Assembly: GCA_000091205.1 (NCBI GenBank)
Contig: AP006500.2
Strand: one strand, 5' to 3'
Origin: Cyanidioschyzon merolae
Taxonomy: Eukaryota
Length of the DNA: 64,000 nt
The stretch's first letter is position 1. Every line of letters begins with the position of its first letter. The position numbers and the translations under genes are program-made. The notes beneath the pieces are model-generated. The model was not told the DNA's origin and ran no database searches. It saw only the letters and a program-made list of their open reading frames with translations. This document shows positions 9,372 to 27,498 of this stretch, one piece after another.

Positions 9372-10325
9372 TCAGGATCCCGCTGGAAGCCGCTCTGTAG
9401 ACGTCCGTGCTGCCGATCGAAAAGGAATCAAGATACCGAACGGAATGTGCTGGATAACGGGGAGCTTCGACCATACCTCCGCTTTGTACATTCGCAACAG
9501 ACCAGCGTTGATCCGTGACCAGTTTTCTAGACCGCTGATGTCGTACAAGGTTGGCGAATGTTCCGCAAATGGACCTCTCTTCGTTTCCAGGATGAAGCGG
9601 ATCGTGTCAAAGTACAAATACTTCGGTGCGAGTTCGAGCACCAGCTCTCGGTCGCGAGCTGCCACTGGTGGTACCTCCGTATCTTTTCCGATCAGCTGCG
9701 AAGAACCAAACAAGAACGGAAGGAAAACGTAGTCGTCAAGTCCCCATACGCCGTGCGATCCTGCGGGCTCCAGGGTAAAGCGCTGCTGAAGGTACCGCGT
9801 CGTGGCTAGATACGCAGGGAATACACTGAGCACCAGTTCGGGAAAGTCCTCAGCTCGGAAGAGATGCAGACGGTGCAGACAGAACATAAACAGCAGAAAA
9901 GAGGCCTCGTGTCCTGTGCCATAATCTATTCGCATCGGGTCCCCGAACGCGCCCAAAAAGTATGCTTGCAGGTCGGGGCCGTATCGTTTGGTTTGATCGC
10001 TTTTGACAAGCAGCTCTTCAGTAAAACGCGGCGTACGCTCCTGCAGCTGTGAAAACCACGTCCGAAAAGCTCGGTTTCCGAAGCGTCCAGTTTCCGCCGG
10101 AAGCAGTTCAACCTCCGCTGCTAACTCTTTCAAAGCAGCGAGCTCCGCGGTAACCAGGCTAGTGGCCGGAACTCGGGGCCCGGCTAGGGCGTCCCCCGAG
10201 AGACCACGAACGCTGCAGTTCAGTCGTTCTACAAAGTCCCAGATGTCTTGGAATGCAGATGACTCCAAAAACTCGGCCAGATCTTTGTGGTCGTAGATCT
10301 GGCGTACTGGCTCAGACTCGTCCAT
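9372..10325 (-). CDS. Serine/threonine-protein phosphatase 2A activator (PTPA / phosphotyrosyl phosphatase activator)
   Basis: PTPA hallmarks: 'GVWGLDDYVFLPFLFGSSQL' (cf. GFWGLDD.QFLPF.FGS.QL); 'HLFRAEDFPELVLSVF'; 'YLYFDTIRFILETKRGPFAEHSPTLYDISG'. Start placed at the second in-frame Met (MDESEPVRQIYD..., verified in frame); the ORF extends to 10403. Confidence 0.8.
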   Translation of the reverse strand: MDESEPVRQIYDHKDLAEFLESSAFQDIWDFVERLNCSVRGLSGDALAGPRVPATSLVTAELAALKELAAEVELLPAETGRFGNRAFRTWFSQLQERTPRFTEELLVKSDQTKRYGPDLQAYFLGAFGDPMRIDYGTGHEASFLLFMFCLHRLHLFRAEDFPELVLSVFPAYLATTRYLQQRFTLEPAGSHGVWGLDDYVFLPFLFGSSQLIGKDTEVPPVAARDRELVLELAPKYLYFDTIRFILETKRGPFAEHSPTLYDISGLENWSRINAGLLRMYKAEVWSKLPVIQHIPFGILIPFRSAARTSTERLPAGS

Positions 10326-11703
10326 GTTTCCGGGAAGAAGACCTCTCGGCAAAGGTAGAAATGCACGCGCCACGCTCAAATGTGCGGTGTTGACGGCGCG
10401 CACCTGCTTCGCATCGCAGAGACATCAAAGAGTACAGTTCACGACACGCCCCATGATCGAGACGTCCAGGAAATCATTTGCAGTGGAGGATCCATGAGTC
10501 GAAGCAGACGATTCCAGAACGCTGAACGCTGCCTCGTGACGATCATATTTCTCGACTTATCTCGCGACTTCTGTGACATCGCATCGCCTCGAGAATGCTG
10601 CTTTTGCGTACAGCAAAAGCGTGGTCGATCTCGCTGCTTCTCAGGCTCCCAGTTGATCCATAATTTTTTTATACAGGCGTTGACGAGCGTAGATTTGTAA
10701 AATGCTCCGGTTTTACCGCGCACTCGGTGGCGTGTACCCTGATCAAGTCCATAAGCCACGCAGATGTTCTGCTCTGCACAGCGCTGTGAACGCAACTCGC
10801 CGGCCGCTCGCGCCACATCGGTAGAGTCAGCATCCGTTTTCTGAGCAATTTTCTGGAGGTATGCAACAACGTTCACATTCTAGTGTATTCCAAGCTGGGT
10901 AGCAAGGCGCCACCGCAATTTCTCTTCCTTTGTGAGCGGAGATATCACGATGCGAACCAGAATTGCTCATGTGTCGTTCCAGATGACATGCTTATTGGAC
11001 AAGGCGCTGGCATGATTTTGGGATAAATGCTATGCATGAACGCCGCACCAAACTCGGGTCGCATGTCGCCAAGTGATGAGGCAGCAGATATCCACTCACG
11101 CACAGACAAAGCAGAAAGAATCTGTACTGTGGTAACATATGCAATTCTTGAACGATTCATATGGGCAACAATGCACATGATCTTCGCCCGCGCGACGTCG
11201 CTTCGAGGAGGCGAACATGCTGCCCGTGCCATCTGCTGCTGACGAACGCCAGCCATGCAGCAGCTCGCCATTGCTCGCCCTATGCGAACTCTTACCCCTC
11301 GGATACACGTAAAAGCTCTGCACCAAATACTTCGCGGACGTGTAGAAGCAACGCAGGTGCGGTACCTCGAGAGACAGACAGACAGAAAGACAGAGAAAGA
11401 GACCCCGTCAGCATGCACGTATCCCAGGAGCCCGCTGCCGACGTGTCCATCGATCCTGCGTGTCCATGGACGCACACAACACGCACACATTCGAGCATCA
11501 AGAAGAGCGCGCTCCGTGCAATCGCACAGGGTTGCGTCTAGTTCTGTACTACAAGTTCTAGTTTCTAGAAGATGCGTGCATGCATGCAGCAATCGAATGC
11601 GTGCGTCACACGCGTCAGACGGATCCAGAGGGAAGCGCTGGTTAGCGCCTTCCCTGCTATCCGCCTGCGTCTACGACTTTGGACCCGTAACTTGCGTTTC
11701 TAG

Positions 11704-14700
11704 GTGGACGCGTGCGGTCGGAACGTTGGTCAAATTTGGTTTTGGGGTTGTTTGGCTCCGGGAACGCTGGTGTTCATGGAGGACGAACATCCTGCGCCTA
11801 ACTCGGATCGCACCTATGCCAGCGACTTGGAGCAGGGGAACGTTTTCGGGAGCAGCCCCTCCGAGCGACACAGTTTCAGCCGCCTTGATGGCAACCGAGC
11901 GGGTTCCATTGGGGATGAGATGGATAGTGATGTAGCTGTTGATGAAGAGGACCGGAATGCGGGTATGGAGGTACTCGGGTTGTTCTCAGTCAGGGCGCGC
12001 TCTCGGGCTCGAGTGCGCAGCGATAACCGCGACGGCAGTGACAGTGGTAGTGCTCTTGACGAGGGCGTCGACGACAACAGCGACGATCATGGCGATGATA
12101 TTGCTGGATTCGGTGAGAGCGACGATCTATCGGGAGACGTGGACAGCAGTGATTGCGGTTTTGAAGACGACCAAAACACCGATGTCGACGCCGCTGGAGA
12201 GAGCGACCTGGAAGAGTTTCCGGACCCAGCTGAAGGAGAGCTGGACTCGTTTCGCCACGACGTGGATGCCACCGATGATGACTTGGGAGAAGAAAACGCC
12301 TCTGATGCGGACGCTTCAACCTTTGGCGATGGCATGGATCACGACGACGACGACGAAGACGAAGACAACGACGACGATGATGATGACGAGGGCGAGGACG
12401 ACGACGACGACAACGATAACGTTGACGAAGAGGAAGACGACGGCGACGACATGCCAAGTGATGATGAGGATGCTGAGTATTCTCAATTTTTCGGCGTTGA
12501 ACAGGAGATGCTTTCCCTCATGGAGCAGCGCGGATCTGCCTGGATGGAGGGTATGCCGGCAGCGCACCTCCAAGCATTGCGCAGAGCCGACATCCAGGCT
12601 CAACGTCTTATGCAGCGCTTTCGGAATGCCGATGATGACATGGAAGTGTTCGTGGTCTGGCGTAATGGACAGGAAGCTGGCGAAATACTCGCAGATCGCG
12701 ATGAGGATGCTTCTCTACCTGGTCTAGGTATACATTTTCTTAACATGACCAACGAACAGCCAGACTGGGCTGAAGGTTTCGGTCTGGGAATCGCCGCAGC
12801 GAATGCGATGTTGCTTAGCGACCCGAGCAGCGAAGCGTTGCGGCCATACGCGCCTGCGCGGCTAGAGCTACCGCAACCGCCGCGCGTTGAGAGCGATTCG
12901 CGATCACCGTCCGAACGTAACTTGTCGGTCGCAGGCAACGTGCTGGACGGCTTGGGCAGTCGCCGACACAGCCCGGGCGCGACTCTGGGCAACATCTTGT
13001 TGTACGGTTCGGGTGCACACTGCCAAAGTTGCCCGAGATCAGCGCGCGAGGCGCTCTCAGCGCTTTGCCGTTCTGACGGCTTGCGCGCCCTGCTGGCGTC
13101 GAGCTCGGCGGTTGCACCGACCGCACTCATGATGCGACGCAATATCAGTTGTGGGGACTGCGGTCTCCGCAATGCGGCGGACGCTCGAATCCATGATTTC
13201 GCGGATCTCGTACTGCGAAGTCCAGCGTTCACAGAGAACCTTGGCCACGGCATCGCAGCTGCATATTTGGTCAGCAAAATGAATCCGCCTCCAAAGGAAT
13301 CCGAGCAGCTGTGGGATCTTGCATCCCTTGGAACCGTGCTCGCTGGAGCGCATTTTCATCCACTCTTTTGGGACGGCGCTCGCGGCAAGAGTTCCGAGTC
13401 GCCACTGCCGGGCTTGTATCGCGCACCACCTGCGCTGTCGATTCGGTTCTCTGAGGATTTGTTGGAAGCGCTGCTGGGGCTGCCTATTGGTCCACTGCTG
13501 GGCATCGATCGTTTCGGAACGCTGGCGGTCACCGGGACGCGCCAAAGGCGGCGAGATGTGCTGCGTCTGTATCGCGCGTTTGGCAGCTGCTCGCTGCGGC
13601 GTGGCGCACCGTACGATGCGCTCAGTGGCCTCGATACCCATGCACGTCATCTGGATACCCAGCAGAAGCGCTTCGCAGCGCTCCACGAGGAAATGCGAAC
13701 ACTCTGGCGCGATGAGCGCGTCCGTAGGGAGCGAGCCCAACTTGACGACGAGTACCGCCGTCTCGTTGACGAAGAGCAAGCGCAGGCCTCGGAATCCTGT
13801 GCGAATGGCAGGCAGGGCGAGCCCGACGTGCCCATGGAACGCTCAGAGCAGCAGGAGCAGGAGCAGGTGCTGCCAGCACCTGGCACGGAGATGGAGGCCG
13901 CTAGCTCATTGACTGGTTCGCTTCTGGAGCATGCGTCTGCTGCGAGTCCGTCACACCCAGCCAGCAGCGGTATGCTTACGGGAGCTGCGGAGACATCAGA
14001 CTCGGCCGTTGTGCTGTCTATGCAAATCGACGATTTGCCGGGCGCTACTCAAGTGCTGGGTCCCGACGCACCTGAACCTGCAGCGAGCGGTGCAGTCGAG
14101 CTCAGTTCGGACGCCGAAGTGCGAGCGCCGCCTGTATCGGACTCTACGACCGATCAAGAGGCAGGGACGCGTTCCATCACCGAGTCCGATATGGAGCACG
14201 TGGCGCGCACTGTCGGCATTGACCCCACGGTGCTCGTCGAGTTACCTCCAGATCTCCGACGAGAAGTCATTCAGCAAAACCTCGCCCAGATTCGGAGCAA
14301 CCCAGCATTTCTGAGCTACCTGCCGGTGAATGTGCGACAGGAAGTTGAGGAGGCAGCTGCCCAGCTTGATCGCCTTCGTGGCTCCGCAGCCGAGATGGAT
14401 AACGCTTCCTTTTTGGCAACGTTGCCCACTGCGCTGCGCGAAGAGATCTATCTAACCTCAGACGAATCGTTTTTGCAGTCATTGCCGCCGCACTTGGCGG
14501 CCGAAGCTCGCGCAGTCCGCGATCGTCGGCGATCATTATCATCAGCATCAGCAGCAGCAGCAGCTGCTGCTGCTTCGGCGTCGTTTCTTGGACCCAATGA
14601 TCTCACTTCTGGTGCGAGCGAAATTTCAGCGCTCATGTCAACGCCGCAAGTCAGCGCGCGAAAAAGCTGTGGCCTTGTCCTGGTCACGCAGTTGGATGTG

Positions 14701-16965
14701 CTGGAGAAGGCGCTGCGCTCGCCCGGAGTCTGCTGCCCGCTGCTCGCGAATACCGTGCGTCTGCTTTGTTACGAGCCAACGACACGGATGCGCATCATTC
14801 GACTAGCCTGGCGGCTCGTGGAATGCCAGCGCCCAGACGATGCGAGCACCGCTGGAAGAAGTGCAGAGCTCGTGGGCAGCTTGCTGCGCTTTAGTCCAAC
14901 GATAGCGCTAGATCTGGTCGCCGCCGATGGCGATCAGCCGTTGATGCACCTGCTCCAGAGCATTCCCAAGGCTGTTCGATTCGGCGGACGCCATTGCCAC
15001 CGTCTGCTGGAGGTGCTGCTTGCGACGACCAGCCTCTTCGTACAACTGTTACGAGGCCAGGTTCCACAGCGTGGTCTGCAATTGGAACCCGCCCAGCCGG
15101 ATGCCTCGATGACGTTGCCAGTCGTTCCGCCGGTGGTCGCTCCGGGGGTGCTCAACGACCTGGCGATTGCCTTGCAGGTTCCGGATCTATCTGCTCGCTC
15201 CTGGGACCGTTTGCTCTCCATCTACGAGTACCTCTATGGCGAAGAGCAGAATCGTGATACTGTCATCCAGTGTCTCGTTCAGATTGCGGGAGCGCTAATC
15301 GAACCGGTGTGTGCTGCCATTCGCGAAGAGCCCGGCTTACGGCCGTGTGAGAGCTTCTTCGTCCAGACAGTGAAGAGTGTTGCGCAGCTGGTGCGTCCGC
15401 ATCTCGAGTGCCTGCAGGTGCTGGAGCCGGTATGGACGTGCCTCGAGGAGCAGTTGGCCGCGGGCGCAGGTGCGGGTCCACCGGTGCGCCTCTCGCGTCT
15501 CATTGAGTGCTACCTTCAGGCGCACAGTATCCGCTTGCCGGACCTGTTAGCGGATCTCAACCAACCGCCAGTGCTGGAGAGCAACCCCTCGCTGCTGGCG
15601 CGTTCGGAGTCTGCGTCAACGTTGCGCTCGTCGACAACGACAACAACAACAACAACGACAAATGGCGTTACGCTGCCCGAGTCGGTCATGGCGATCGACC
15701 GTGAACTCGCAAGCTTCCTGGAGCGGCACACGCTGCAGATCAATCAATTACTGCAATTGAATCCGGCCCTGTTTCGTCAGGGATTTCAATCGACGCTCTT
15801 GCATGCCCGCTTTCTGGAATTCGAAAACAAGAAAGTGTTCTTCCGGCACGTTATCCAGGAACAGCGACGCGCGAGTCGACAATCGCCCGTGCGTCTGCTC
15901 GTGCGCCGCGACTGCGTTTTCGAGGACAGCTATCATCAGTTACGGCCGCGCAGCGCTGCGGAGCTTCGTGGAACCCTCACCGTCCAGTTCGTTGGCGAGG
16001 AAGGCATCGACGCCGGTGGACTTTTGCGCGAATGGTACGTGATCCTGGCTCGCAAGATCTTCGACGAGAATTACGCGCTCTTTCGCCGTTGCGTCGGCAA
16101 AAGCGCTGCATACCATATCAACGAATGTTCGTATATTAACGAGGATCATCTGGGCTTTTTCAAGTTCATCGGACGCTTCATCGGCAAAGCGCTCTGGGAC
16201 GGTCAACTCCTGGATGCCTATTTCGCTCGCTCCGTTTACAAGCACATGATCGGCATAAGGCCTTCGTACCACGATATTGAAGCGATCGACCCGGAATACT
16301 ACGCCAGTCTGGTGTGGATGCTCGAGCATAACATCGCTCACGTGCTGGACTTGACCATGGCGGCGGAGCTGGACCAGTTCGGAGAGCTCAAAGTCGTGGA
16401 TCTGGTACCCGGCGGCCGCCATATTCCCGTAACCGAGGAGAACAAATGGGAATACGTACGACTCATTACCGAACTCAAAATGACCAAAGCCGTGGAGCCC
16501 CAGTTGCAGGCGTTTCTCGAAGGGTTTCACGAAATGGTACCGCGCTCACTCATTGCCATGTTCAGCGATTACGAACTGGAGTTGCTTATCTCCGGTCTGC
16601 CCGAGATCGATACCGCTGATCTCAAGATGCATACCACGTACAGCGGCTACCGACCGTCGAGCCCACAGATCCAGTGGTTCTGGCAAGCGGTTGCCGAGAT
16701 GGATCGTGACGATCGCGCACGTCTCGTGATGTTCGTCACCGGCAGCAGCAAGGTACCGCTGGGCGGCTTTGCGAACCTCCCCGGTATGAATGGCGGTGTT
16801 CAGCGCTTCCAGATCCATCGCGTTGCTGGTGATACCGATCGTCTGCCGAGTGCACATACCTGCTTTAATCAACTTGATCTCCCTGAGTATAGCAGTTATG
16901 AAAAGCTTCGCGAACGCTTATTGACAGCAGTTCGTGAAGGCAACGAGGGTTTCGGGTTTGGTTGA
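11704..16965 (+). CDS. HECT-domain E3 ubiquitin-protein ligase, HUWE1/UPL1/Tom1-like
   Basis: C-terminal HECT domain: 'LTVQFVGEEGIDAGGLLREWYVILARKIFDENYALF', 'HLGFFKFIGRFIGKALWDGQLLDAYF', 'SGLPEIDTADLKMHTTYSGY', 'FVTGSSKVPLGGFANL', and the catalytic-Cys region 'LPSAHTCFNQLDLPEYSSYEKLRERLLTAV' ending ...EGNEGFGFG. A long acidic D/E tract (aa ~200-260) resembles the HUWE1 acidic region. The true start may be an internal Met (MEDEHP...). Confidence 0.85.
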   Translation: MDACGRNVGQIWFWGCLAPGTLVFMEDEHPAPNSDRTYASDLEQGNVFGSSPSERHSFSRLDGNRAGSIGDEMDSDVAVDEEDRNAGMEVLGLFSVRARSRARVRSDNRDGSDSGSALDEGVDDNSDDHGDDIAGFGESDDLSGDVDSSDCGFEDDQNTDVDAAGESDLEEFPDPAEGELDSFRHDVDATDDDLGEENASDADASTFGDGMDHDDDDEDEDNDDDDDDEGEDDDDDNDNVDEEEDDGDDMPSDDEDAEYSQFFGVEQEMLSLMEQRGSAWMEGMPAAHLQALRRADIQAQRLMQRFRNADDDMEVFVVWRNGQEAGEILADRDEDASLPGLGIHFLNMTNEQPDWAEGFGLGIAAANAMLLSDPSSEALRPYAPARLELPQPPRVESDSRSPSERNLSVAGNVLDGLGSRRHSPGATLGNILLYGSGAHCQSCPRSAREALSALCRSDGLRALLASSSAVAPTALMMRRNISCGDCGLRNAADARIHDFADLVLRSPAFTENLGHGIAAAYLVSKMNPPPKESEQLWDLASLGTVLAGAHFHPLFWDGARGKSSESPLPGLYRAPPALSIRFSEDLLEALLGLPIGPLLGIDRFGTLAVTGTRQRRRDVLRLYRAFGSCSLRRGAPYDALSGLDTHARHLDTQQKRFAALHEEMRTLWRDERVRRERAQLDDEYRRLVDEEQAQASESCANGRQGEPDVPMERSEQQEQEQVLPAPGTEMEAASSLTGSLLEHASAASPSHPASSGMLTGAAETSDSAVVLSMQIDDLPGATQVLGPDAPEPAASGAVELSSDAEVRAPPVSDSTTDQEAGTRSITESDMEHVARTVGIDPTVLVELPPDLRREVIQQNLAQIRSNPAFLSYLPVNVRQEVEEAAAQLDRLRGSAAEMDNASFLATLPTALREEIYLTSDESFLQSLPPHLAAEARAVRDRRRSLSSASAAAAAAAASASFLGPNDLTSGASEISALMSTPQVSARKSCGLVLVTQLDVLEKALRSPGVCCPLLANTVRLLCYEPTTRMRIIRLAWRLVECQRPDDASTAGRSAELVGSLLRFSPTIALDLVAADGDQPLMHLLQSIPKAVRFGGRHCHRLLEVLLATTSLFVQLLRGQVPQRGLQLEPAQPDASMTLPVVPPVVAPGVLNDLAIALQVPDLSARSWDRLLSIYEYLYGEEQNRDTVIQCLVQIAGALIEPVCAAIREEPGLRPCESFFVQTVKSVAQLVRPHLECLQVLEPVWTCLEEQLAAGAGAGPPVRLSRLIECYLQAHSIRLPDLLADLNQPPVLESNPSLLARSESASTLRSSTTTTTTTTTNGVTLPESVMAIDRELASFLERHTLQINQLLQLNPALFRQGFQSTLLHARFLEFENKKVFFRHVIQEQRRASRQSPVRLLVRRDCVFEDSYHQLRPRSAAELRGTLTVQFVGEEGIDAGGLLREWYVILARKIFDENYALFRRCVGKSAAYHINECSYINEDHLGFFKFIGRFIGKALWDGQLLDAYFARSVYKHMIGIRPSYHDIEAIDPEYYASLVWMLEHNIAHVLDLTMAAELDQFGELKVVDLVPGGRHIPVTEENKWEYVRLITELKMTKAVEPQLQAFLEGFHEMVPRSLIAMFSDYELELLISGLPEIDTADLKMHTTYSGYRPSSPQIQWFWQAVAEMDRDDRARLVMFVTGSSKVPLGGFANLPGMNGGVQRFQIHRVAGDTDRLPSAHTCFNQLDLPEYSSYEKLRERLLTAVREGNEGFGFG

Positions 16966-17098
16966 GGCGTATCGAAAGCGTATGTGTTCGGTCTTTGGAA
17001 GCACGTCTCGCTTGAAAGCCGTTGCGAACGGTTATGCCTAGCAGTTCGTAAAGGCAACGAGGCTTTCGGGTTTCGTCCGTAGCGCACCAAAAGCGTAC
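16907..17098 (+). repeat. Tandem duplication (~85-bp unit, ~110-bp offset) covering the last ~20 codons of the HECT CDS and its immediate 3' flank
   Basis: 'aaaagcttcgcgaacgcttattgacagcagttcgtgaaggcaacgagggtttcgggtttgg...aaagcgta' (16907-16992) recurs as 'gaaagccgttgcgaacggttatgcctagcagttcgtaaaggcaacgaggctttcgggtttcg...aaagcgta' (17011-17098). The second copy has an in-frame 'tag'. Confidence 0.7.
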
Positions 17099-18258
17099 TC
17101 TGGAGCACGTCGTACCCGGTCATCTTTTCGTCGGTTCAAACGGAACCGTGTCCCGTAAAGAACGCGAGCACTTGTAGTCGTGAACAAAAAGACGCTGTAC
17201 GCAAACACAAACACACACACCTGCACCTGCACCCCGCTTGACCTGGTCTGCCGGCACTCACACTATCACCAGAAGAGTCACGTTTCAGAAAGTGTCCACT
17301 GGGTTCATGGAGTGGTTGCGTAGCGCACCTGCACCAGAGCGCAACGAACGACGACAGGCGTTCTGGGAAGCTCTCCGCGAACGCCGGACCTACAGCGATG
17401 CCTCTCTACAATGCTGACACGTCCACGCGGCATCAGAGTAGCTGAAGCGTATGCTTCAAGTCTGAGTAGACGCGTCGAATGAAGCTGAACGGTACTAGAG
17501 AGGCGTTATCGTACGCGCAACGCGAACATGGTATCCATGGACTAGGGTCTGCATAGACAAGTACAGACGAGGAAGAAGATCGTGATTTACGGTAGGGGAG
17601 GTCGGAAACCGATAATTGTCGTACGGAATCGCAGAACGCAGGTCATGAGAAACGATCCTGCACCTGGATGTGGAGAAACGAAGCGGACTAGCCAGTGAAA
17701 CGCTATGGAAAGGCGCGTATTCCCCGCTAGCCGCCACAGCACACACATAAGACACGGACACGGACGCAGCGCTGAACCTGCACCCGAGTCCACGAACACC
17801 ATATGTTCATGGGATCTGGGCTGTGCACCATGAACGTATTCGGGTCACTGTTTCGACTCTATCCGTATCTCGATGGTGTCCACTTGATGAACGGAGTGTG
17901 TTTACGGGTGCCTGCGTTGCCTGGTCATGTACAGACACCTGGGCTGGTACCTGTTCAAGCGTTTCTGGCGTGTGGTCTAGCGCGATACACGCAGGCACTG
18001 CACTCGGGCGCAAGCGAATCCAGGATAAACGAAATTGTTACGGGAAGAGGTACGGCTGGTTCTGGTTTCGTGGTCGAAAAGCGCAGCACCGTATTACCAG
18101 TCTGGGACAAGGCATCAGGCGGGTCCATGTCCGTCCAAGTACTTGCCGCTGAACTGCAGCCGTGCTCATGGAGCGCTCACGAACGGGATGCAGGCACCGT
18201 TCGACGCACCGGTACTGGCGTGCATTCTCCTCGGCGATGAGCCGTGACATCGGGATCC

Positions 18259-18291
<33 letters not shown>

Positions 18292-18292
18292 C
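18259..18292. repeat. (CAG)n microsatellite in the 3' flank of the 2371-aa gene
   Basis: Direct read: 'gcagcagcagcagcagcagcagcagcagcagc'. Confidence 0.9.
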
Positions 18293-18478
18293 GACTCGCA
18301 CGAATGCCTTGTGCTGTCCACTCGGTGCAGCACGATCAGTCACAGTCATGTGCCGCGATTCCGCGAATGAATAGAACGGATCAAGCCGCGTTCCGTAACG
18401 CTCGCGGCTACACGATGGCACCCTGCACCCATTCGTGACGTCTCGCGTGCTGTGAATGCTGGAGCGTATCTGAACCCG

Positions 18479-21400
18479 CTAAAATGACGGCGAACGCGAT
18501 ATCGTTTCCTCTGCGTCATCGGTATCCGCAGAGCGCTTGCGTTCAAGCGCTGCGCCAGACCAGGACAGCTCCTGGTTTGGCTCCAACATCGACTCCGGGT
18601 CCAGCACCGGCTCCGGGAGCCGAGCGCGCCCCAGTGCACCCAGCAGGGGTGCATAGTCGAATAGGTCGCTCTTCACGCTCGGCAGACTGCGCAGAAGCTC
18701 ACGCAAGCGATGCGCCTCGAGTGCCGCTCCGTTCTTGAGCAATGGATAGCGACCGGTGCGATCGGGGCCGTACTGCAAGAGGCCCGGCCCGTAGAACACC
18801 GCCAGCTGATACAAACACTCGAGCAGCGTGTTCGCTTGTGTTGGTTCCTGGAAACTGCTTCCGTACAGTTCAAGCAGCAGGTTGGATCCCCCGGTCGTAG
18901 CCATCTGTCGATGAGCGTCGTGCACGACCAGTCGCGTCGTCAATGACGCAAGACGGGCGATGGACTGGGGGCGCTCATGCGTCGCCGTCGACGTCAAAAC
19001 GGCTTCGCTGCGCACACTGACGCCCTCGAAAGCCTGCAGGTCGCGCCAGCGCTGAAGCGCTTCCGTCCAGAGCTCCAGCGCCAGTGCTTGCGGCTCACCA
19101 GCATGGGCGCTCAATTGCACCACAAGCGCCCGAGCGCTTAGATAGCGCCAGTCCACCGCACTTAGAGGATCGGCGGCACCCGCCGCAACGGACGCTTGCA
19201 TGTTTGGTGCCTGGGCGGCCAAGCAGCGCACCAACCAGTCCCGATAACTGGCCGCAGAGGGGCGACGAAGCACGCGCGTGAGCGCCGTCGCAAAGGGTGC
19301 GCCAAACGTGCTCATGCAGCTAGCTAGCGCCCAAACCAGACCCGGCTCCTCGTGACTCATTAACAGCGTCAGCAGATTGCCATCAACTCGGACGGTCTCG
19401 ATCGACGGACAATCGCTATTCAGCTGGTAGCGCGGTTCAGCGCGGCGGTCACGCGTCGCATCCACAGGCCGGAGGCAGCGCATGAGCGAAACGCTTAACG
19501 CCATTGGATGCAGGGCCTGGAGCCGCTCCAGCACTGGATTCAGCGATGCCGCAGTCACAGTGTGCTGATGCTGACCGCTTTGACTGAGGGACTCACGGAA
19601 CGCCTCGCGCAGCACGCGATCAAACGCTGAAATCACCAGTCCAATATCGTGCTCGTAAAAGGCGATGCGAACGTATTCGGCAAGCAGGAGCCAGGCGTGC
19701 AGCATCCGCGCCACCAGAGGCGCTACCTGCTGCTGCTGTTGTTCTTGTTGTTGTTGTTGTTGCTGCTGCTGTTGCTGCTGCGCTCGCAGCGCGTCTATAT
19801 GGCGCTGCATGCGCAAAAACGCCTGCAAAACGGCAGCCGGCGTCGGCGCTGCAACCCGCACCTGCGCATGCGCTGCAGCAACAACCGCCTCCAGGGCACT
19901 CAACTCTAAATCCAATAGCGCCAACCGCTGAGAAGGTTCAGCGGAAGCAGCACCCGCAACCTGATGCGCTTCTATCCAATCCCATAGCGGCCGAATGACG
20001 CCCAGCATTTGTTCGAGCACCGTCGGCAAACGTACCCGCTTCCATCGATACTGCCATAGCGTCCCCAGCGCCTGTCGAGCCAGGAACCGCGGTAAATGAG
20101 CGGTCAGTACACCACGCGGTATATACGGTACCGTCGTTACATAGGACGGTCGTTCAGCAATGCGCCCGGTTGGCTGCGTGGCCCCCGCAGCCGGCTCATG
20201 CACCGAGTGCGCCGTGATCACACGCAGCAGCAGCGCGTAGAGCATCAGGTACGCGGGCATGCGTGCATCCTGCGGAGGACACGTGTCCAGCGAAGCTTCC
20301 AGAATCTCGGCAAGGACACGCAGCATCGACACGCTCGTATCATGGAAGCCGAGGCGTGCGATCCAGTGTACTGCCACAGCCGGTGCCCGCACGACCAGGC
20401 TAGCCAAGGGATGCTCATCGAGAGGGCGTGTTCGTGACGTGCCCGTTGCGTCCATTTGACGGGATGAAAGCAGCGACTTGTCTTCGAGCCATGTCGTCGG
20501 TGGTAACAGACTCCAACACTCAGCAACGAGCGCAGTGTCGAGCGTTTCAGGCGGCGCGCTGAATAGGCGATGCAGCGCTTGTTCCCGTACCCATTTCCGG
20601 AGTTGTTGCTGAAAACTGATCCAGTCCAGCTGCGGCATCCGTTGTCGTCGATGACCAACTTGCAAGAGGCGCAACAGTCGACGACTCCAGGGCAGGAGCA
20701 CATCAATGCGCGCCGGGCGTAGCGGGAAACTGCTGCCTTTGCCGTATGTGTCCACGAAGCGTTCCAAAGCTTCATCCGAATCGAGTAGCAAGTCGGGATG
20801 ACGGTGCATGGGTGCCCGCTCCGAAGATCTCCACCTCAGACCGGCTTCGAGGCCAGCCACGGGCGGTGCTGCGCCGCCGCCACTAGCTAGTAGTGATGAT
20901 GGTGCTGGTGCTGGTGGCGATGCATCCACGGCAAGCAGCAGTCGTACCAGGTTCAGTAGACGGAATACGAACAGACGAGGCCATTGCGACCAGTCGTGCT
21001 CAAGAAGTCGACGCACAAGCACGCTTACCAGTGCCAAATAGGATGTCCGCGTTGCCTGCTCCGCATTCCACGCGTCGTTCGGCGACGCTGCCGCTGCCAT
21101 CGTTGTTGTTGTTGTTGGTGGTGGTGTTGTAGCTGCAACTGCAGATGAACCGCCGCTCATGCCAAAAGCCGCTGCAGTCATCCGCGTCGCAGCGTCGCTG
21201 TCACGTCGCGAGCGCGTTTCGACGCCGACCGCATCCCCAGCAGGTGCCAGACGCGCTGCGGTCGCTTCGCGGCGCTCCGAGCTTGGTGTCGCGTCGCCTA
21301 GCGCTAGGTCTTCGGCGAGCAGCGCAACGACCAACAGGTCAAGCAGTGCATCCAGAGCTCGGCAGGTGTCCAGCGAGACCGGCGGTACCAGCTGACGCAC

Positions 21401-24400
21401 CAGACGAAACAACTCCACTGGCCAGCCGCGAGCGTACAACACCGTCAATAGGCGACGCGCTGTGCGTCGCGGCAACGACGACTCTTGGAGCAGCGCTCGC
21501 AGAGACGAAACCAAGCCCACCAGATAGATACACTGTGCTGGCTCCAGATGAGCGGTTGTCGGTCGTTGCACCAGCTCCCATACGTCCCCCGTGAACAGCG
21601 TCTCGCAGGCAGCCCAGTGACCAACAAGCACGTCAGCTAGGGTGATGTCCAGTTCACTCTCCTGGAGCACACACTGGTAGAATGGACGAACATTCACCCC
21701 GAATATAGCCAAAGCGCGTGCAACGCCAAACACCTCGGTAACATTCTGCTCGGCACGTTCACTGCTCCACTGCATCGTATCGGTTGCCGGGGATGAAGCA
21801 GCCTGCGCCGTACCACCGGAACGCCAGGGCGGTGACTGCAGCGGCCTCGAAGGCACCGCTCTGGTAGCGTTCGACAGTCGACTGGTACGATCCGCCGCGG
21901 TGGACGCTTGCTCAATCATTACCACCTCGATTTCCAGGGATCTCTTCGCTGGAAGCGCGACTGGATACACTGTAACTGCTTCGAAGGCACACTGGGCAAG
22001 CGCGAAACGAGCCAGTCGCTCTAAGCACCCGACTGCCTGCAGAAGCGTTCCGTCGCCTACTGCAGTGTCCGTAGCGGCAGACGCAGCTGCAGCTCTGCCG
22101 CCACTCATACCACGGAGACGAAACTTGTGCTTCAGCTGTTGACCCCAGAGCGCGAGCAGCATCAGAAGCGTTCCGAGTTCACTGGCCAGAGAGAGCGTCT
22201 GCGGCCAGTCAGATTCGAGTATTGCTTCGAAAAGCGGCGGTGCTCGCTGGGCATTGCGACTTGCGTGCGTCGATAACGATGACGATGACGCTCGTTGTGA
22301 GCCAATGGATGACGCTCGGATTCGTGTGCAATGCACCGGGGAGACCTGGTTCAGCACCAGCGGTAGCGCTTGGGCAAGACGCTGGCCAAGCATGGCGCGT
22401 ACACGAGCGGCCTCGATCACCATGCCAGCTCGCAACGCCTGACGACGTACCGATTCCGTCACTTGGATTAGTTGACGAACGCTCGGAACCGCTCGATCTT
22501 CATTCGAGCTGAGCAGGTACAACCCCAGCGGAACAAACAGCGAACGCAAAGCCTCCAGCCACAGCGCGGCCTGCAACTCCTCAAGTCGCTCCCGTGTGAG
22601 TGCAGCAACGCGTCGCTCAGCGGACTGGCGCGATGTAGCAAGCAACGCCTTGCGTAGCAACTCGCAGAACATCATCGCGCTATCCAAGGCAAGCAGCTCT
22701 TCCGTCCGCTGCACCACGAGTACCTCGAGTGATGCACCCGCAGAGGCCGCAGCGCTCTCGTCCACATTGTCGTTCGTGGTGCTAGCGCTGAGTGCTTGAT
22801 GCTGGTCGCGCTCGCGGAGCCAGCTTTGTAGTTCACTGAGCACCACTTGTTCAAAAATCGTCTGCACTGTTGGGCCGCGTTTCCACAGGCCCCTAATGAA
22901 ACTCAAGTCGTAGCCCGAGTGGAATCGAGCACGAGATAGCGCAGGTCGATAGAGCATCACTCGCACGAGACAAGACAGCATACGTCCGAGAATTGAGCTG
23001 GGCGTTGGCCCCGGTCGCAACTGCCCCAACGGGGCTGTTGGTACCTCAGCCAGCTCCGTGCACGTCGATTCCACGGGTTGAAGCAAAGCCTCCAGCTGTT
23101 CCCGTCGGATGCAGAGAGCATCTAGCGCATGCCAGGCGGCTATGTATGCTTCTGCTGTCGCCGGGAGGTCCATCGATGTCGACTGCTCCGCCGCCAGCAC
23201 AGCCAGTAATCCGTCGATGGTGTGTTCCTCCCAGAAAACTGCTGCATTGGCGGGATCATCGTTCATTGCCAAGGCCAAGGTCTGCGTTGCGACGCTCCAG
23301 ACAGCACCACCAAACAGTCTCGGATGGCGCAGGACTTGCTCCAGCAAGTGTCGAATCACAGGTTGATGTAGGGTCAAGGGCTCCGCCGGCGTTCCGGCAG
23401 CAGCGGTAGCATTCCCACCAGAGGTTGCCGGGCCCGAGTGCGCACCTGTCGCTTGCGCGCGTTCTGAAGGTAACCACGCCGTTGGACCAGTTGTGCTCGC
23501 AGCTGGCATCGTACCGGAGAGTGTCGGTGATGCATTCCGTATCAAAGAGGCAGCAGCGGGAGTCCCGTTACCGTTCGATTGACTCTCGTAGCGTAACAGC
23601 AAAAAGTGCCAAGCGATGCGCATCCAGGTGCTCTCCAGCAGCGTCAACGTTCCAAACGTTTCCGAAAGTGCCTCGGCTGCGTCATGGTGTGCCCAGGGGT
23701 ACGCCCGGATGCGTTCTAGGTAGCGTTCGTGTTCCCGATGAGCAGCGGACCTCTCAGAAACGTGCCCGATGAGGTATTGCAGCTGTGCGAGTAGCATCTG
23801 CTGGACGTATGCCATTTCGTGGCGAAGCAATCCGAAAAAAGAGTCATCAGAGCGCGTTTGACGAAACACCATCGTCCAGAACTGCAATGCCCATAGCGAC
23901 AGCAGTGAAGCTGGGGCAACCGCCCCCAGTACACCGGTCAGTTTTTGAAACAAACCCACCAGTTGCAGTTGTAAACGCCCATCGAGATGCTGGAGACGTC
24001 GCTCCCGCCGCAGTAGTCGACTCATGGTGCTCAGATAGAGCTCCAGCCGCTCGGCGTGACTAGAGGATGCATCATTGGGCGTTTCCTGTTGCGTCTGGAG
24101 TGCAGTACACACCGCCTGGAACAGCCAACTGGCTCCGCGGCCATGTAGCATCGATGTGAGCAGCGGTTTCTCCCACTTCCACGTCGCTGCAGCAACAGCT
24201 AGCAGACGCAGCGACGCACGCTCGACAAGAGCCCTGACACTGGGGTGGAGCTCGACGCTCACTGCGTTTCGCGCTCCGTTAGCCAGCGCCGGGCGTTGAC
24301 TGGTTTGAAAGAAGGCACCCCGCAGAGTATCGATCACGTCCTCCCAAAAGTGTGGTTCGCTCATCAACAACTGCTCCAGAGATACTCGCGCCGTGCCCGA

Positions 24401-25594
24401 GCTCGACAGCAGCACCGCCATGGCCTCGAAACGGACCGCCAGACGCAAGAGGCCCCACTCGAGCCGGAAACGACACCAGTGACGCAAGTTCGTTCGTTGC
24501 GAGCGTCGCTGACCCCGTGCAGCATTCACAGTGCTCGCTTTTGGGCACGCTTGGACTCGTTGCTCCGGCGCTGTACGCTCATGATGGATGCTTGCTCGCC
24601 AGTGAGGTGCAAAAGCGTCCTGCAGTGACGCCCACTGGAGCACATCCAAGCAAGGACTTGATCCCTCCGTATCAGGGCGTGTTCGTAGCGCATGAAAAGC
24701 GCTTCTGTAAGCACCGGCTTCGGATGCTGAGTCCAGTGGACTGGTGCGGCACCAGGCGCATGACCTTGAGGCCGCACTAATGTTCTCCTCGAGCGCAGCG
24801 GGAACCACACGATCCCCGGCATTCTCCGCAACGCTCTCTATTTCCATGGACGAATCCGGTGAGCTACGACTTTCCCAGCGCGTAAACTCAAGTCCACTAC
24901 CCGAGAGAGACTGCTCGTCGGTGCTGGTATCGGTGCACGAGGCCACTGCAACCGTCTCGGTGACTGGCTCGGCGGCAGCCTGCGTACGAGCACGCAGAGC
25001 CCGGAACAAGTCATCATAAACAGGATCGTGTCTGCAGAGTTCCAGGAGAGAATCCACGAGACGAGGTCCCAACCAGGCTGCGTCGGCACTCAAGGGTGCG
25101 TAAGCAGCCTCGCTCAGGAACGGCACCCGTGCTACCTGCCACCAAACTTCAAGAGCCTGGATCACAAGAACGAGACAGTCGGTTTCCAATATCTCTTGCA
25201 TAAGATCAAAAGGAAGCACCGACTGGCGGCATTCGGGTGCGAGTTGCGCAGCCAGCCAACCGAGCTTCGTGAGGTCTACCGCCAGTTCGCGGAATACACC
25301 GTTTCGTGCACCAGTCTGTCCAGCTTCGGCGACATCAGCGTCTCTAGTCGATAACGCCCTCATTGCGCGCAAGTTCCGTTCAATCGAAGCCCAAACTTGC
25401 TCAATCCAACCCTTCCACGGAGACGCTAGGCGAAGTAGCGGGTACGTGAGCCACGGACTCGGAGCCGCTGCTGTCACCTTCCAGGTTGTTCCCGTAGGGG
25501 CAGTGCCGGCCTGTGTACCCGTCCAAACACGCTCGAGCCAAGAGTCGAGCTGATCAGGATCAAACCCGAACCAATCATTCGTCTCGTACTCCAT
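18479..25594 (-). CDS. Large (2371 aa) uncharacterised protein, Leu/Ala-rich and probably helical-repeat, with a polyQ tract
   Basis: Uninterrupted 7.1-kb ORF with protein-like composition throughout, and with an N-terminus beginning MEYETNDWFGFDPDQLDSWLERVW. It carries a Q18-like tract (QQQQQQQQQQQQEQQQQQ, DNA about 19735-19790) and poly-T/A/S linker tracts. I recognise no catalytic motif. Confidence 0.6.
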   Translation of the reverse strand: MEYETNDWFGFDPDQLDSWLERVWTGTQAGTAPTGTTWKVTAAAPSPWLTYPLLRLASPWKGWIEQVWASIERNLRAMRALSTRDADVAEAGQTGARNGVFRELAVDLTKLGWLAAQLAPECRQSVLPFDLMQEILETDCLVLVIQALEVWWQVARVPFLSEAAYAPLSADAAWLGPRLVDSLLELCRHDPVYDDLFRALRARTQAAAEPVTETVAVASCTDTSTDEQSLSGSGLEFTRWESRSSPDSSMEIESVAENAGDRVVPAALEENISAASRSCAWCRTSPLDSASEAGAYRSAFHALRTRPDTEGSSPCLDVLQWASLQDAFAPHWRASIHHERTAPEQRVQACPKASTVNAARGQRRSQRTNLRHWCRFRLEWGLLRLAVRFEAMAVLLSSSGTARVSLEQLLMSEPHFWEDVIDTLRGAFFQTSQRPALANGARNAVSVELHPSVRALVERASLRLLAVAAATWKWEKPLLTSMLHGRGASWLFQAVCTALQTQQETPNDASSSHAERLELYLSTMSRLLRRERRLQHLDGRLQLQLVGLFQKLTGVLGAVAPASLLSLWALQFWTMVFRQTRSDDSFFGLLRHEMAYVQQMLLAQLQYLIGHVSERSAAHREHERYLERIRAYPWAHHDAAEALSETFGTLTLLESTWMRIAWHFLLLRYESQSNGNGTPAAASLIRNASPTLSGTMPAASTTGPTAWLPSERAQATGAHSGPATSGGNATAAAGTPAEPLTLHQPVIRHLLEQVLRHPRLFGGAVWSVATQTLALAMNDDPANAAVFWEEHTIDGLLAVLAAEQSTSMDLPATAEAYIAAWHALDALCIRREQLEALLQPVESTCTELAEVPTAPLGQLRPGPTPSSILGRMLSCLVRVMLYRPALSRARFHSGYDLSFIRGLWKRGPTVQTIFEQVVLSELQSWLRERDQHQALSASTTNDNVDESAAASAGASLEVLVVQRTEELLALDSAMMFCELLRKALLATSRQSAERRVAALTRERLEELQAALWLEALRSLFVPLGLYLLSSNEDRAVPSVRQLIQVTESVRRQALRAGMVIEAARVRAMLGQRLAQALPLVLNQVSPVHCTRIRASSIGSQRASSSSLSTHASRNAQRAPPLFEAILESDWPQTLSLASELGTLLMLLALWGQQLKHKFRLRGMSGGRAAAASAATDTAVGDGTLLQAVGCLERLARFALAQCAFEAVTVYPVALPAKRSLEIEVVMIEQASTAADRTSRLSNATRAVPSRPLQSPPWRSGGTAQAASSPATDTMQWSSERAEQNVTEVFGVARALAIFGVNVRPFYQCVLQESELDITLADVLVGHWAACETLFTGDVWELVQRPTTAHLEPAQCIYLVGLVSSLRALLQESSLPRRTARRLLTVLYARGWPVELFRLVRQLVPPVSLDTCRALDALLDLLVVALLAEDLALGDATPSSERREATAARLAPAGDAVGVETRSRRDSDAATRMTAAAFGMSGGSSAVAATTPPPTTTTTMAAAASPNDAWNAEQATRTSYLALVSVLVRRLLEHDWSQWPRLFVFRLLNLVRLLLAVDASPPAPAPSSLLASGGGAAPPVAGLEAGLRWRSSERAPMHRHPDLLLDSDEALERFVDTYGKGSSFPLRPARIDVLLPWSRRLLRLLQVGHRRQRMPQLDWISFQQQLRKWVREQALHRLFSAPPETLDTALVAECWSLLPPTTWLEDKSLLSSRQMDATGTSRTRPLDEHPLASLVVRAPAVAVHWIARLGFHDTSVSMLRVLAEILEASLDTCPPQDARMPAYLMLYALLLRVITAHSVHEPAAGATQPTGRIAERPSYVTTVPYIPRGVLTAHLPRFLARQALGTLWQYRWKRVRLPTVLEQMLGVIRPLWDWIEAHQVAGAASAEPSQRLALLDLELSALEAVVAAAHAQVRVAAPTPAAVLQAFLRMQRHIDALRAQQQQQQQQQQQQEQQQQQVAPLVARMLHAWLLLAEYVRIAFYEHDIGLVISAFDRVLREAFRESLSQSGQHQHTVTAASLNPVLERLQALHPMALSVSLMRCLRPVDATRDRRAEPRYQLNSDCPSIETVRVDGNLLTLLMSHEEPGLVWALASCMSTFGAPFATALTRVLRRPSAASYRDWLVRCLAAQAPNMQASVAAGAADPLSAVDWRYLSARALVVQLSAHAGEPQALALELWTEALQRWRDLQAFEGVSVRSEAVLTSTATHERPQSIARLASLTTRLVVHDAHRQMATTGGSNLLLELYGSSFQEPTQANTLLECLYQLAVFYGPGLLQYGPDRTGRYPLLKNGAALEAHRLRELLRSLPSVKSDLFDYAPLLGALGRARLPEPVLDPESMLEPNQELSWSGAALERKRSADTDDAEETISRSPSF

Positions 25595-25914: not shown

Positions 25915-26345
25915 TGTATTACGCTATGAAGTGTTGGATTGTAGTACACTAGGATTTGTTATATAGTTTTACGCTATGAAGTGTTGGATTGTAGTACACT
26001 AGGATTTGTTACATTATTTTACGCTATGAAGTGTTGGATTGTAGTACACTAGGATTTGTTACATTATTTTACGCTATGAAGTGTTGGATTGTAGTACATT
26101 AGGATTGGTTACATTATTTTTAAGCTATGAAGTGTTGGATTGTAGTACATTAGGATTTGTTACATTATTTTTAAGCTATGAAGTGTTGGATTGTAGTACA
26201 CTAGGATTTGTTACATTATTTTACGCTATGAAGTGTTGGATTGTAGTACATTAGGATTTGTTACATAGTTTTACATAATAAAGTGTTGAATTTTAGTACA
26301 CTAGGATTGGTTATATCGTTTTACATTATAAAGTTTTGGATTGTA
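25915..26345. repeat. Minisatellite, ~9 copies of a 50-51-bp unit ('acgctatgaagtgttggattgtagtacactaggatttgttacattatttt'), followed to ~26445 by two degenerate ~58-bp related units
   Basis: 'gaagtgttgg' recurs at 25928, 25978, 26028, 26078, 26129 and onward with a 50/51-bp period. The block is AT-richer than its flanks. It lies in the divergent intergenic region between the 2371-aa gene (-) and the cyclophilin gene (+). Confidence 0.9.
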
Positions 26346-27498
26346 GTACATTGCACTGCATTGCTTTCATTTGTCACATCGCTTTACACGATGATGTTAT
26401 GGACTGTAGTTCATTGCACTGCATTGCTTTGATGTGCGCGATGTACCGTCGAGCGTAGCACTGGCGTCGACGGCGCCTGCTACGAGTACGGCTCGAGGGC
26501 TGGTTTCGTTGCGCATTCGCCACGTGCTCGGGAAACGGTGCCGGGTCCACAGGTTAGGTCTGAGACGACTGGAAACCTGTCTAGGTTAGAGGGGCGTTCA
26601 TCAAGTACTACTACGTAGGCAACAGGAAGCCGTCGTTCCAGGCGTGAACGGTGTCGCGGGAATAGTCAGCGTGGTGCAGCGCGGGCAAGTTGCTGTACGC
26701 GAGTACGCGCGGCGTTTTTATCCCGGTTTGCAACGCGGCTGCTGCCAGCGTCTGTACCTACACTTTGCCAAAAAAAGCAATTTCCAGATTTTCGGTCACC
26801 TGGAAGGGTTTTATCTGAGCACTACGGACCACACGCCGTTCGGCTATGCTGGCTGCCACCGCATGGAACAGCACACTGCACGGAGAGGCTCCAGCGAGCA
26901 CTTGAGCCGTTCTCGGGGCGTGCGAGCAACAGCACGCAACGCTACGTCCATAAATGGAAACGAGGGTTTTTATGCAGCTACTTGGAACGTCGTCGTGGTG
27001 TGCAAGCGGGTGCCAGTGCCGTGTGCATCAGCTTTGAGCAACTTATGTTGGATTTCACAGCCGCGGCTTTGGATTCAAAGCCACAGCAGCAATCGCGGCT
27101 TTGGCGCGTCCGTTTGCACCCAACCAACGGGCGAGAATCGACATGTGCGCTCGAGTACGCATCCCATGGACTACTGGCTTCGTACTAGGACACATTGCCG
27201 CCAGACTCGGAGGCGTTCCCGCAATCGCGCTCGTTTTCGCGTAGGCGCTGAACCTTTAGCAACCCCAACTCCAAATCGTCAAACTACTCTGTACGGGAGA
27301 TGTGGATGGCAGTGGGCGCATGGGAGCTTCCAGCGCGTTCGAGCTACAAAATTCCAGACCCTGGGCGAGAGCACCTGCCGTTTGGTGCTGGCAACTGACG
27401 GCGATGGACGACCAAAACGATCGCCCTGCCATTGGCAACGAATGCGAATGCTCGGAGAGCCCGCTTCGAAAGGATGCACAGCCGCTGAAACTAGCAGA

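What the first reader, a model, noticed from the sequence alone, without database searches (positions are those of the whole stretch)
18479..25594. 2371-aa orphan-looking giant protein with a polyQ tract
A 7.1-kb uninterrupted ORF with protein-like composition in which I can recognise no catalytic or named domain. It is Leu/Ala-rich (suggesting HEAT/ARM-like helices), carries a Q18 tract and long Thr/Ala/Ser linkers, and begins with MEYETNDWFGFDPDQLDSW. It could be a diverged scaffold such as a nucleoporin, a Mediator or Integrator subunit, or a UTP20/URB1-like protein, or it could be lineage-specific.
Basis: seen in the sequence. Interest (0 to 1): 0.6.

Follow-up and report, generated by a model that had tools for sequence, protein, structure and literature searches.

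The report
Detached scaffold half of split HUWE1 ligase
The 2371-aa "orphan" is very probably the helical scaffold (N-terminal two thirds) of a giant HUWE1/Tom1-type ubiquitin ligase that hot-spring red algae encode as two facing genes, the catalytic part being the gene next door.

Summary
The ORF is real: window 18479-25594, minus strand, 2371 aa, Leu/Ala-rich, with a Q12-E-Q5 tract rather than Q18. The window is Cyanidioschyzon merolae 10D.

The protein is not an orphan. Orthologues at 52, 54 and 33 % identity exist in three other cyanidiophycean lineages.

The tail-to-tail neighbour (11776-16965, +; XP_005538384.1) aligns collinearly with human HUWE1 2843-4373 (UBM, ARLD4, HECT; E 4e-223). 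It lacks the N-terminal solenoid.

All four lineages share this convergent pair. I conclude that an ancestral HUWE1-type gene was split by an inversion inside its disordered ARLD3-ARLD4 tether.

That the halves reassemble as a two-chain ligase is inferred, not shown.

Verdict: a new variant of a known kind, of moderate interest.

The parts
18479..25594 (-). N-half gene: 2371-aa alpha-solenoid protein, the proposed ARLD1-3 equivalent of a HUWE1/Tom1-type ligase. By accession arithmetic it is probably XP_005538385.1/BAM82349.1 of C. merolae 10D.
   Evidence: ORF confirmed. Orthologues found. Purifying selection. Accession gap.
23087..23350 (-). DUF913 core (aa 749-836), the most conserved block of the protein. 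It aligns with HUWE1 residues about 531-623.
   Evidence: Pfam PF06025: E 5.3e-8, 32.7 bits against a cut-off of 24.7. The same place scores E 1.8e-10 in P0048 and 5e-4 in Cyanidiococcus. Identity is 77 % across four lineages. In hhalign it is the top match, though weak (E 0.089).
21911..21985 (-). Conserved non-helical insert (aa 1204-1228, FEAVTVYPVALPAKRSLEIEVVMIE), predicted as a beta-hairpin. Its role is unknown.
   Evidence: Invariant residues. Strands at model residues 35-56 (low pLDDT).
19727..19780 (-). Q12-E-Q5 tract (aa 1939-1956). It is lineage-specific and length-polymorphic, and lies in a low-confidence loop.
18608..18808 (-). Last conserved block (aa 2263-2329, ...GRYPLLKNGAALEAHRLRELLRSLPSVKSDLFDY...). 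In all four lineages the stop codon follows about 40-60 poorly conserved residues later, so the C-terminus is ancient.
11776..16965 (+). C-half gene: 1729 aa, identical to C. merolae 10D XP_005538384.1 'ubiquitin-protein ligase E3'. It is the catalytic partner (acidic tract, UBM, ARLD4-like region, HECT).
   Evidence: 100 % identity. Pfam UBM and HECT. The family profile aligns in one stretch with human HUWE1 2843-4373 (E 4e-223) and with Tom1 2645-3267.
12058..12480 (+). Asp/Glu-rich low-complexity tract near the N-terminus of the C-half. It resembles the acidic part of the HUWE1 disordered tether.
14218..14526 (+). UBM ubiquitin-binding repeats of the C-half.
   Evidence: Pfam PF14377, E 1e-15, two stretches. 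Conserved in L005.
16045..16959 (+). HECT catalytic domain. The catalytic-Cys motif LPSAHTCFNQLDLPEY is present.
   Evidence: Pfam PF00632, E 5e-95. Best PDB matches are HUWE1 and Tom1. Sequence shown.
16966..18478 (.). Spacer between the two stop codons of the convergent pair. It is 1.5 kb here, against 707, 331 and 69 bp in the other three lineages.
10326..11775 (.). Head-to-head spacer between PTPA (9372-10325, minus strand) and the C-half. It is the candidate shared bidirectional promoter that the inverted C-half would have captured. This is inference.
   Evidence: PTPA is adjacent to and divergent from the C-half in all four lineages.

Best explanation
The ORF encodes the detached N-terminal alpha-solenoid of the cell's HUWE1/Tom1/UPL1-type HECT ubiquitin ligase, the equivalent of armadillo-repeat-like domains ARLD1-3. 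In the ancestor of Cyanidioschyzon, Cyanidiococcus and their relatives a single giant gene was cut inside the long disordered tether between ARLD3 and ARLD4. The most economical route is one inversion of the 3' segment. That left the N-half and the C-half (UBM, ARLD4, HECT) tail-to-tail on opposite strands, and placed the C-half head-to-head with the PTPA promoter region. Shown here: homology of the C-half to HUWE1 2843-4373, the DUF913 signature and HUWE1-first fold ranking of the N-half, conservation of the split layout in four lineages, and purifying selection on both halves. Inferred: the two polypeptides reassemble non-covalently into the ring-shaped ligase. The N-half would supply most of the substrate-binding inner surface. 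The C-half would supply ARLD4, the ubiquitin-binding UBMs and the catalytic HECT domain. In human HUWE1 the ARLD1-ARLD4 ring closure is already a non-covalent contact, and the ARLD3-ARLD4 connection is a roughly 900-aa disordered loop. I put about 0.8 on the split-HUWE1 identity and about 0.55 on assembly in trans.
For: (1) Pfam DUF913 scores above its gathering cut-off in the target (E 5e-8) and in its 33 %-identical orthologue (E 1.8e-10). The hit falls on the best-conserved block.
(2) DUF908, DUF913, UBM (DUF4414) and HECT co-occur in HUWE1, Tom1-like and UPL1/2 proteins (PMC3673628).
(3) The neighbour's family profile aligns as one collinear stretch with human HUWE1 2843-4373 (E 4e-223) and with Tom1. 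It has nothing corresponding to HUWE1 1-2843.
(4) The HUWE1 domain map is ARLD1-3 = aa 1-2259, disordered 2259-3179, ARLD4 and HECT = 3179-4374 (PMC8476073). The sizes 2371 aa and 1729 aa fit a cut in the disordered tether.
(6) The same convergent pair beside PTPA, epimerase and a mitochondrial carrier is present in C. merolae, Cyanidiococcus yangmingshanensis, a third metagenomic lineage and NCBI assembly GCA_026184775.1.
(7) Both ORFs are intact, with pN well below pS. The start of the C-half and the end of the N-half are conserved in position.
(8) A transcript-like contig from another organism carries UBA...UBM...HECT on one strand, which is the unsplit state.
Against: Detectable sequence similarity to HUWE1 is limited to about 90 of 2371 residues.
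DUF908 is not detected.
Profiles of the family find no PDB chain.
hhalign against HUWE1+Tom1 gives only E 0.089 at the DUF913 site.
The AlphaFold models are low-confidence (mean pLDDT 53 and 45), so fold ranks are suggestive only, and generic ARM/HEAT proteins score not far behind.
Physical association of the two halves, their co-expression, and the absence of a second complete HUWE1 gene elsewhere in the genome were not tested.
The N-half evolves twice as fast as the C-half (dN 0.43 against 0.22) and shows relaxed within-population constraint (omega 0.4 against 0.06). That would also fit a partly emancipated protein.
Confidence: 0.75

Rival explanations
1. The origin is the same (the N-terminal part of a split HUWE1 gene), but the protein has become an autonomous scaffold. 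It would no longer work with the HECT half, for example acting as an adaptor in another complex.
For: The N-half evolves faster than the C-half and shows relaxed within-population constraint. DUF908 has been lost beyond recognition. There are lineage-specific inserts, namely the polyQ and a beta-hairpin. Isolated HECT-proximal fragments of HUWE1 are catalytically active in vitro (established knowledge; crystal-structure constructs).
Against: The tight tail-to-tail linkage of the two genes is kept in four lineages that have diverged to 33 % identity. Human HUWE1 needs the closed ring and the N-terminal region for full activity (PMC8476073). The best-conserved block is exactly the ancestral DUF913 core.
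Confidence: 0.15
2. It is a lineage-specific helical repeat protein unrelated to HUWE1. On this view the DUF913 match and the fold ranks are generic ARM-repeat resemblance, and the adjacency to the HECT gene is coincidental.
Confidence: 0.06
3. It is an artefact. Either an assembly inversion breaks one real gene, or this is a decaying pseudogene remnant, or the two halves are rejoined at the RNA level by trans-splicing.
For: The two parts are adjacent and together have the size of one HUWE1.
Against: The layout is reproduced in more than 10 independent metagenome assemblies and in three other genome lineages. Both ORFs are intact over 7.1 and 5.2 kb and under purifying selection. The N-half has a conserved C-terminal end with its own stop, and the C-half a conserved N-terminal peptide after its ATG. 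Trans-splicing is not known in C. merolae, which has very few introns (background knowledge).
Confidence: 0.03

Closest known systems
Human HUWE1 (ARLD1-3 solenoid; PDB 7JQ9, 7MOP, 7MWD) and Nematocida HUWE1 (7BII, 7NH1)
   Different: The ligase is encoded as two polypeptides on opposite strands. No DUF908, UBA, WWE or BH3 module is detectable. Identity is about 10 % outside the DUF913 core. There are lineage-specific inserts (polyQ, beta-hairpin).
Yeast Tom1 (PDB 9DNS, 9EGK) and plant UPL1/UPL2
   Same: They belong to the same class VI HECT family with DUF908-DUF913-(UBA)-UBM-HECT. They are quality-control ligases for orphan basic proteins (ribosomal proteins, histones). That is the likeliest role here, by homology only.
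   Different: They rank below both HUWE1 structures. No family-specific sequence signature is present and there is no supporting gene context.

Membership tests
HUWE1/Tom1/UPL1 family (class VI HECT ligases) | DUF913 (PF06025) domain in the N-terminal solenoid | tested here: met
   E 5.3e-8, 32.7 bits against a cut-off of 24.7, at aa 749-836. E 1.8e-10 in orthologue P0048 and 5e-4 in Cyanidiococcus at the homologous site. Only profile positions 105-198 of 382 are matched.
HUWE1/Tom1/UPL1 family (class VI HECT ligases) | DUF908 (PF06012) domain upstream of DUF913 | tested here: not met
   No Pfam hit in aa 1-740 of the target or of the Cyanidiococcus orthologue, even at E <= 10.
HUWE1/Tom1/UPL1 family (class VI HECT ligases) | UBM (DUF4414) repeats and a C-terminal HECT domain on the same polypeptide | tested here: not met
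   The target ends without either. Both are on the convergent neighbour 11776-16965. For this reason I call it a split variant, not an ordinary member.
HUWE1/Tom1/UPL1 family (class VI HECT ligases) | ARM-like solenoid fold closest to the HUWE1 ARLDs | tested here: inconclusive
HUWE1/Tom1/UPL1 family (class VI HECT ligases) | Partner carries a HUWE1-type ARLD4-HECT module with the catalytic cysteine | tested here: met
   The profile of the C-half family aligns with HUWE1 2843-4373 at E 4e-223. The motif LPSAHTCFNQLDLPEY is present.
HUWE1/Tom1/UPL1 family (class VI HECT ligases) | Closed ring through an ARLD1-ARLD4 contact; ligase activity depends on the N-terminal region | not testable with these tools
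   This needs complex prediction or biochemistry. The requirement in human HUWE1 is taken from PMC8476073.

The most novel reading that the evidence does not exclude
A HUWE1-type giant HECT ligase works in these thermoacidophilic red algae as an obligate two-gene, two-chain enzyme. Its substrate-binding ring would be assembled in trans, so ligase activity or substrate range could be set by how much N-half is made or by whether it docks. The conserved, HUWE1-unrelated region of the C-half (about aa 240-650) and the conserved C-terminal block of the N-half would be the new docking elements.
Probability: 0.45. Interest if true: 0.6.

Novelty: new variant of a known kind. Interest (0 to 1): 0.5.

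Why it matters
First, it turns a 2371-aa "hypothetical" protein of the model red alga C. merolae into a testable component of the ubiquitin system.

Second, surveys that start from the HECT domain described the HECT repertoire of unicellular red algae as simplified (PMC3673628). For the HUWE1-type ligase, the N-terminal architecture is not lost but encoded next door.

Third, a naturally split HUWE1 that has been stable over deep divergence would show that the ARLD3-ARLD4 tether need not be covalent. It would also offer two smaller, thermostable pieces for structural and reconstitution work on a ligase family that is difficult to handle and medically important.

Fourth, it is a clean example of gene fission by a single intragenic inversion in a eukaryote, with a plausible capture of a neighbouring promoter.

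Tried and rejected
- Word-indexed protein searches with the whole protein and with a low-complexity-trimmed four-sequence profile found only close cyanidiophycean relatives.
- An exhaustive phmmer search of aa 1-1200 against 1.84 billion representatives gave 5 hits. Four are the family itself and one (P0049, E 3e-5, 9 stretches) looks like low-complexity noise.
- phmmer and hmmsearch against PDB sequences, using the protein and the 2- and 4-sequence profiles, found only polyQ/huntingtin noise or nothing.
- hhalign against a HUWE1+Tom1 alignment picked the DUF913 site, but only at E 0.089. A second match, the C-terminal RELLRSLPSVKSD against HUWE1 DELMRHQPTLKTD (E 0.22), I regard as chance. A collinear counterpart, LWKRGPTVQT at about aa 903-912, is a by-eye comparison only.
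- tblastn, hmmsearch and hhalign of the family against the upstream part of an unsplit HUWE1-like transcript (L005) found no similarity.
- Relaxed Pfam scans found no DUF908.
- A metagenome scan with the two best motifs returned only C. merolae-like contigs, so no outgroup was found.
- The AFDB Foldseek library was unavailable.
- I tried to fetch the 10D chromosome and the 10D record of the target. The exact sequence, with any of five start codons, is not in the collection. Only accession arithmetic suggests it is XP_005538385.1.
- The literature searches run here found no report of a split HUWE1 in red algae.
- Misassembly, pseudogene and trans-splicing readings were considered and rejected, as set out under the rival explanations.

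Full report
OBSERVATION

The ORF is present exactly as described, on the minus strand: ATG at 25594, stop at 18479-18481, 2371 aa. An in-frame stop lies just upstream of the ATG. Leu and Ala each make up about 14 % of residues. The glutamine tract is Q12-E-Q5 at aa 1939-1956, not a pure Q18. At about 60 % GC an open frame of this length has a chance probability near e^-77.

ORGANISM

The flanking genes are typical of an intron-poor eukaryote: a mitochondrial carrier, an NAD-epimerase, PTPA, a CYP38-like cyclophilin and an APC1-like protein. Four neighbours are 100 % identical to Cyanidioschyzon merolae 10D proteins:
- PTPA = XP_005538383.1.
- HECT protein from ATG 11776 = XP_005538384.1.
- Cyclophilin = XP_005538386.1.
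- APC1-like = XP_005538387.1.

The window is therefore C. merolae 10D. One accession, XP_005538385.1/BAM82349.1, is left for the gene between the HECT protein and the cyclophilin, which is the target. I could not retrieve that record. The exact protein, with any of five possible starts, is absent from the 15-billion-protein collection.

IS IT AN ORPHAN?

By sequence it nearly is. A word-indexed search found only a 99 % allele. An exhaustive phmmer of aa 1-1200 against 1.84 billion representatives found five proteins: the allele, P0046 (about 51-54 % identical), a fragment P0047 from Cyanidiococcus, P0048 (30-33 %), and one noise hit.

Genomic look-ups place full-length orthologues in three further lineages:
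- Cyanidiococcus yangmingshanensis, 2317 aa, 52 % identical.
- A metagenomic lineage, L017.
- NCBI assembly GCA_026184775.1, L016, 2101 aa.

The gene is under purifying selection. Against Cyanidiococcus pN is 0.33 with pS saturated at 0.75, and between near-identical alleles omega is about 0.4. The polyQ is missing from all orthologues and differs between alleles, so it is a young low-complexity insert without evident significance.

WHAT IT IS

Three independent lines of evidence converge.

(a) Domain signature. Pfam DUF913 matches aa 749-836 above the curated threshold (E 5e-8). The homologous site scores E 1.8e-10 in the most distant orthologue and 5e-4 in Cyanidiococcus. This is the best-conserved block of the whole protein, 77 % identical over four lineages. 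According to a eukaryote-wide HECT survey, DUF908, DUF913 and DUF4414 (now called UBM) co-occur in HUWE1, fungal Tom1-like and plant UPL1/2 ligases (PMC3673628).

(b) Fold. AlphaFold2 models of aa 1-1200 and aa 1172-2371, built on shallow alignments, are nearly all-helical with long disordered linkers. Their confidence is low, with mean pLDDT of 53 and 45. Results of the fold searches:
- Model 1, Foldseek: human HUWE1 first of 350,542 chains (E 4e-3, highest TM).
- Model 2, Foldseek: HUWE1 second (E 3.2e-4) and Nematocida HUWE1 ninth.

Generic ARM/HEAT proteins follow.

(c) Context. The convergent neighbour, 11776-16965 on the plus strand, is annotated 'ubiquitin-protein ligase E3' and carries UBM repeats and a HECT domain. 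A profile of this protein and its relatives aligns as one collinear stretch with human HUWE1 residues 2843-4373 (E 4e-223) and with Tom1 2645-3267. It is therefore the UBM-ARLD4-HECT third of a HUWE1 orthologue and has nothing corresponding to residues 1-2843.

The cryo-EM paper on HUWE1 gives the domain map (PMC8476073):
- ARLD1: aa 1-840.
- ARLD2: aa 841-1610.
- ARLD3: aa 1750-2259.
- A largely disordered region, aa 2259-3179, containing the UBMs.
- ARLD4: aa 3179-3989.
- HECT.

A 2371-aa solenoid plus a 1729-aa protein is what a cut inside that disordered tether would give. The 1729-aa protein starts with an acidic low-complexity tract.

IS THE SPLIT REAL?

Several observations indicate that it is:
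- The same tail-to-tail pair, next to PTPA, epimerase and the mitochondrial carrier, is found in all four lineages. Their C-halves are 1729, 1660, 1673 and 1563 aa, and all carry UBM and HECT.
- It also appears on many independent metagenome contigs.
- The N-half ends 40-60 residues after its last conserved block in every lineage.
- The C-half begins with a conserved peptide directly after its ATG.
- A transcript-like contig from another organism carries UBA...UBM...HECT on one strand, which is the usual unsplit state.

Geometrically, a single inversion of the 3' segment of an N->C gene yields exactly this convergent arrangement. The breakpoints would lie in the tether and just past the stop codon. 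The inversion also puts the new 5' end of the C-half head-to-head with PTPA, as observed in all four lineages. Capture of that promoter region is my inference.

HOW IT MOST LIKELY WORKS (INFERRED)

The two products reassemble into a ring-shaped ligase. The N-half would provide the bulk of the concave armadillo surface that binds extended, often basic or modified, substrate segments. The C-half would provide the UBM ubiquitin-binding repeats, ARLD4 and the flexibly tethered HECT domain, which carries the catalytic Cys motif LPSAHTCFNQ.

This is plausible for two reasons. In human HUWE1 the ARLD1-ARLD4 ring closure is already a non-covalent interface that is needed for full activity. The ARLD3-ARLD4 link is a roughly 900-aa disordered loop.

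By homology to Tom1 and HUWE1, the likely job is quality-control ubiquitylation of unassembled or excess proteins.

No tool here could test binding between the halves. I put about 0.8 on the split-HUWE1 identity and about 0.55 on assembly in trans.

WEAKNESSES

- Sequence similarity to HUWE1 is confined to about 90 residues.
- DUF908 is undetectable.
- Family profiles do not reach any PDB chain.
- hhalign gives only E 0.089 at the DUF913 site.
- The models are poor.
- The N-half evolves twice as fast as the C-half, which leaves room for partial or full functional emancipation.
- I could not search the rest of the genome for a second HUWE1-like gene.
- I could not find an outgroup red alga to date the fission.

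NOVELTY

The gene model presumably exists in the 10D annotation. The HECT half is annotated as a generic E3. I found no report that the two are halves of a HUWE1-type ligase. HECT-anchored surveys describe the red-algal repertoire as simplified. I classify this as a new variant of a known kind, a naturally split giant HECT ligase, of moderate interest.

Noticed in passing
window 17013-17076 (compare 16899-16962): The last 64 nt of the HECT coding sequence are repeated at 81 % identity 114 nt downstream, just past the stop codon, inside the spacer between the two convergent halves. This could be a small tandem duplication or a scar of rearrangement.
   Followed up: partly
window 25919-26350: A tandem array of a 50-nt unit, 8.6 copies at 91 % match, lies in the spacer between the start of the target gene and the CYP38-like gene.
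   Followed up: no
window 44124-44525: A tandem array of an 81-nt unit, 5 copies at 98 % match.
   Followed up: no
window 18258-18290: A pure CAG/CTG run of about 11 units lies in the non-coding spacer 190 bp beyond the stop codon of the target gene.
   Followed up: no
window 31953-40739 (-): This 2928-aa protein is annotated in 10D as 'similar to meiotic check point regulator' (XP_005538387.1). It has an APC1 beta-sandwich match (E 2.7e-6), and its orthologue in L017 hits three APC1 Pfam domains. It is probably the APC/C subunit 1.
   Followed up: partly
window 21911-21985 (-), aa 1204-1228 of the target: A strongly conserved segment, FEAVTVYPVALPAKRSLEIEVVMIE, is predicted as a beta-hairpin inside an otherwise helical protein. 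No counterpart was identified.
   Followed up: no
window 12480-13730 (+), about aa 240-650 of the C-half: A region well conserved among the four cyanidiophycean C-halves lies upstream of the stretch of the family profile that aligns with HUWE1 and Tom1. It is a candidate lineage-specific docking or regulatory module.
   Followed up: no
window 18479-25594; protein collection: All four neighbouring 10D proteins are in the 15-billion-protein collection with NCBI and UniProt accessions. The target is not, under any of five start codons. Only the gap in accession numbering (XP_005538385.1) suggests that it is annotated.
   Followed up: partly
L004/L005 (JGI 3300016801), about 3352-3365: In this transcript-like contig of an unsplit HUWE1-like gene, the upstream ORF and the 1943-aa UBM-HECT ORF overlap by a few bases in different frames. 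This could be a frameshift, a sequencing error or an unspliced intron.
   Followed up: no
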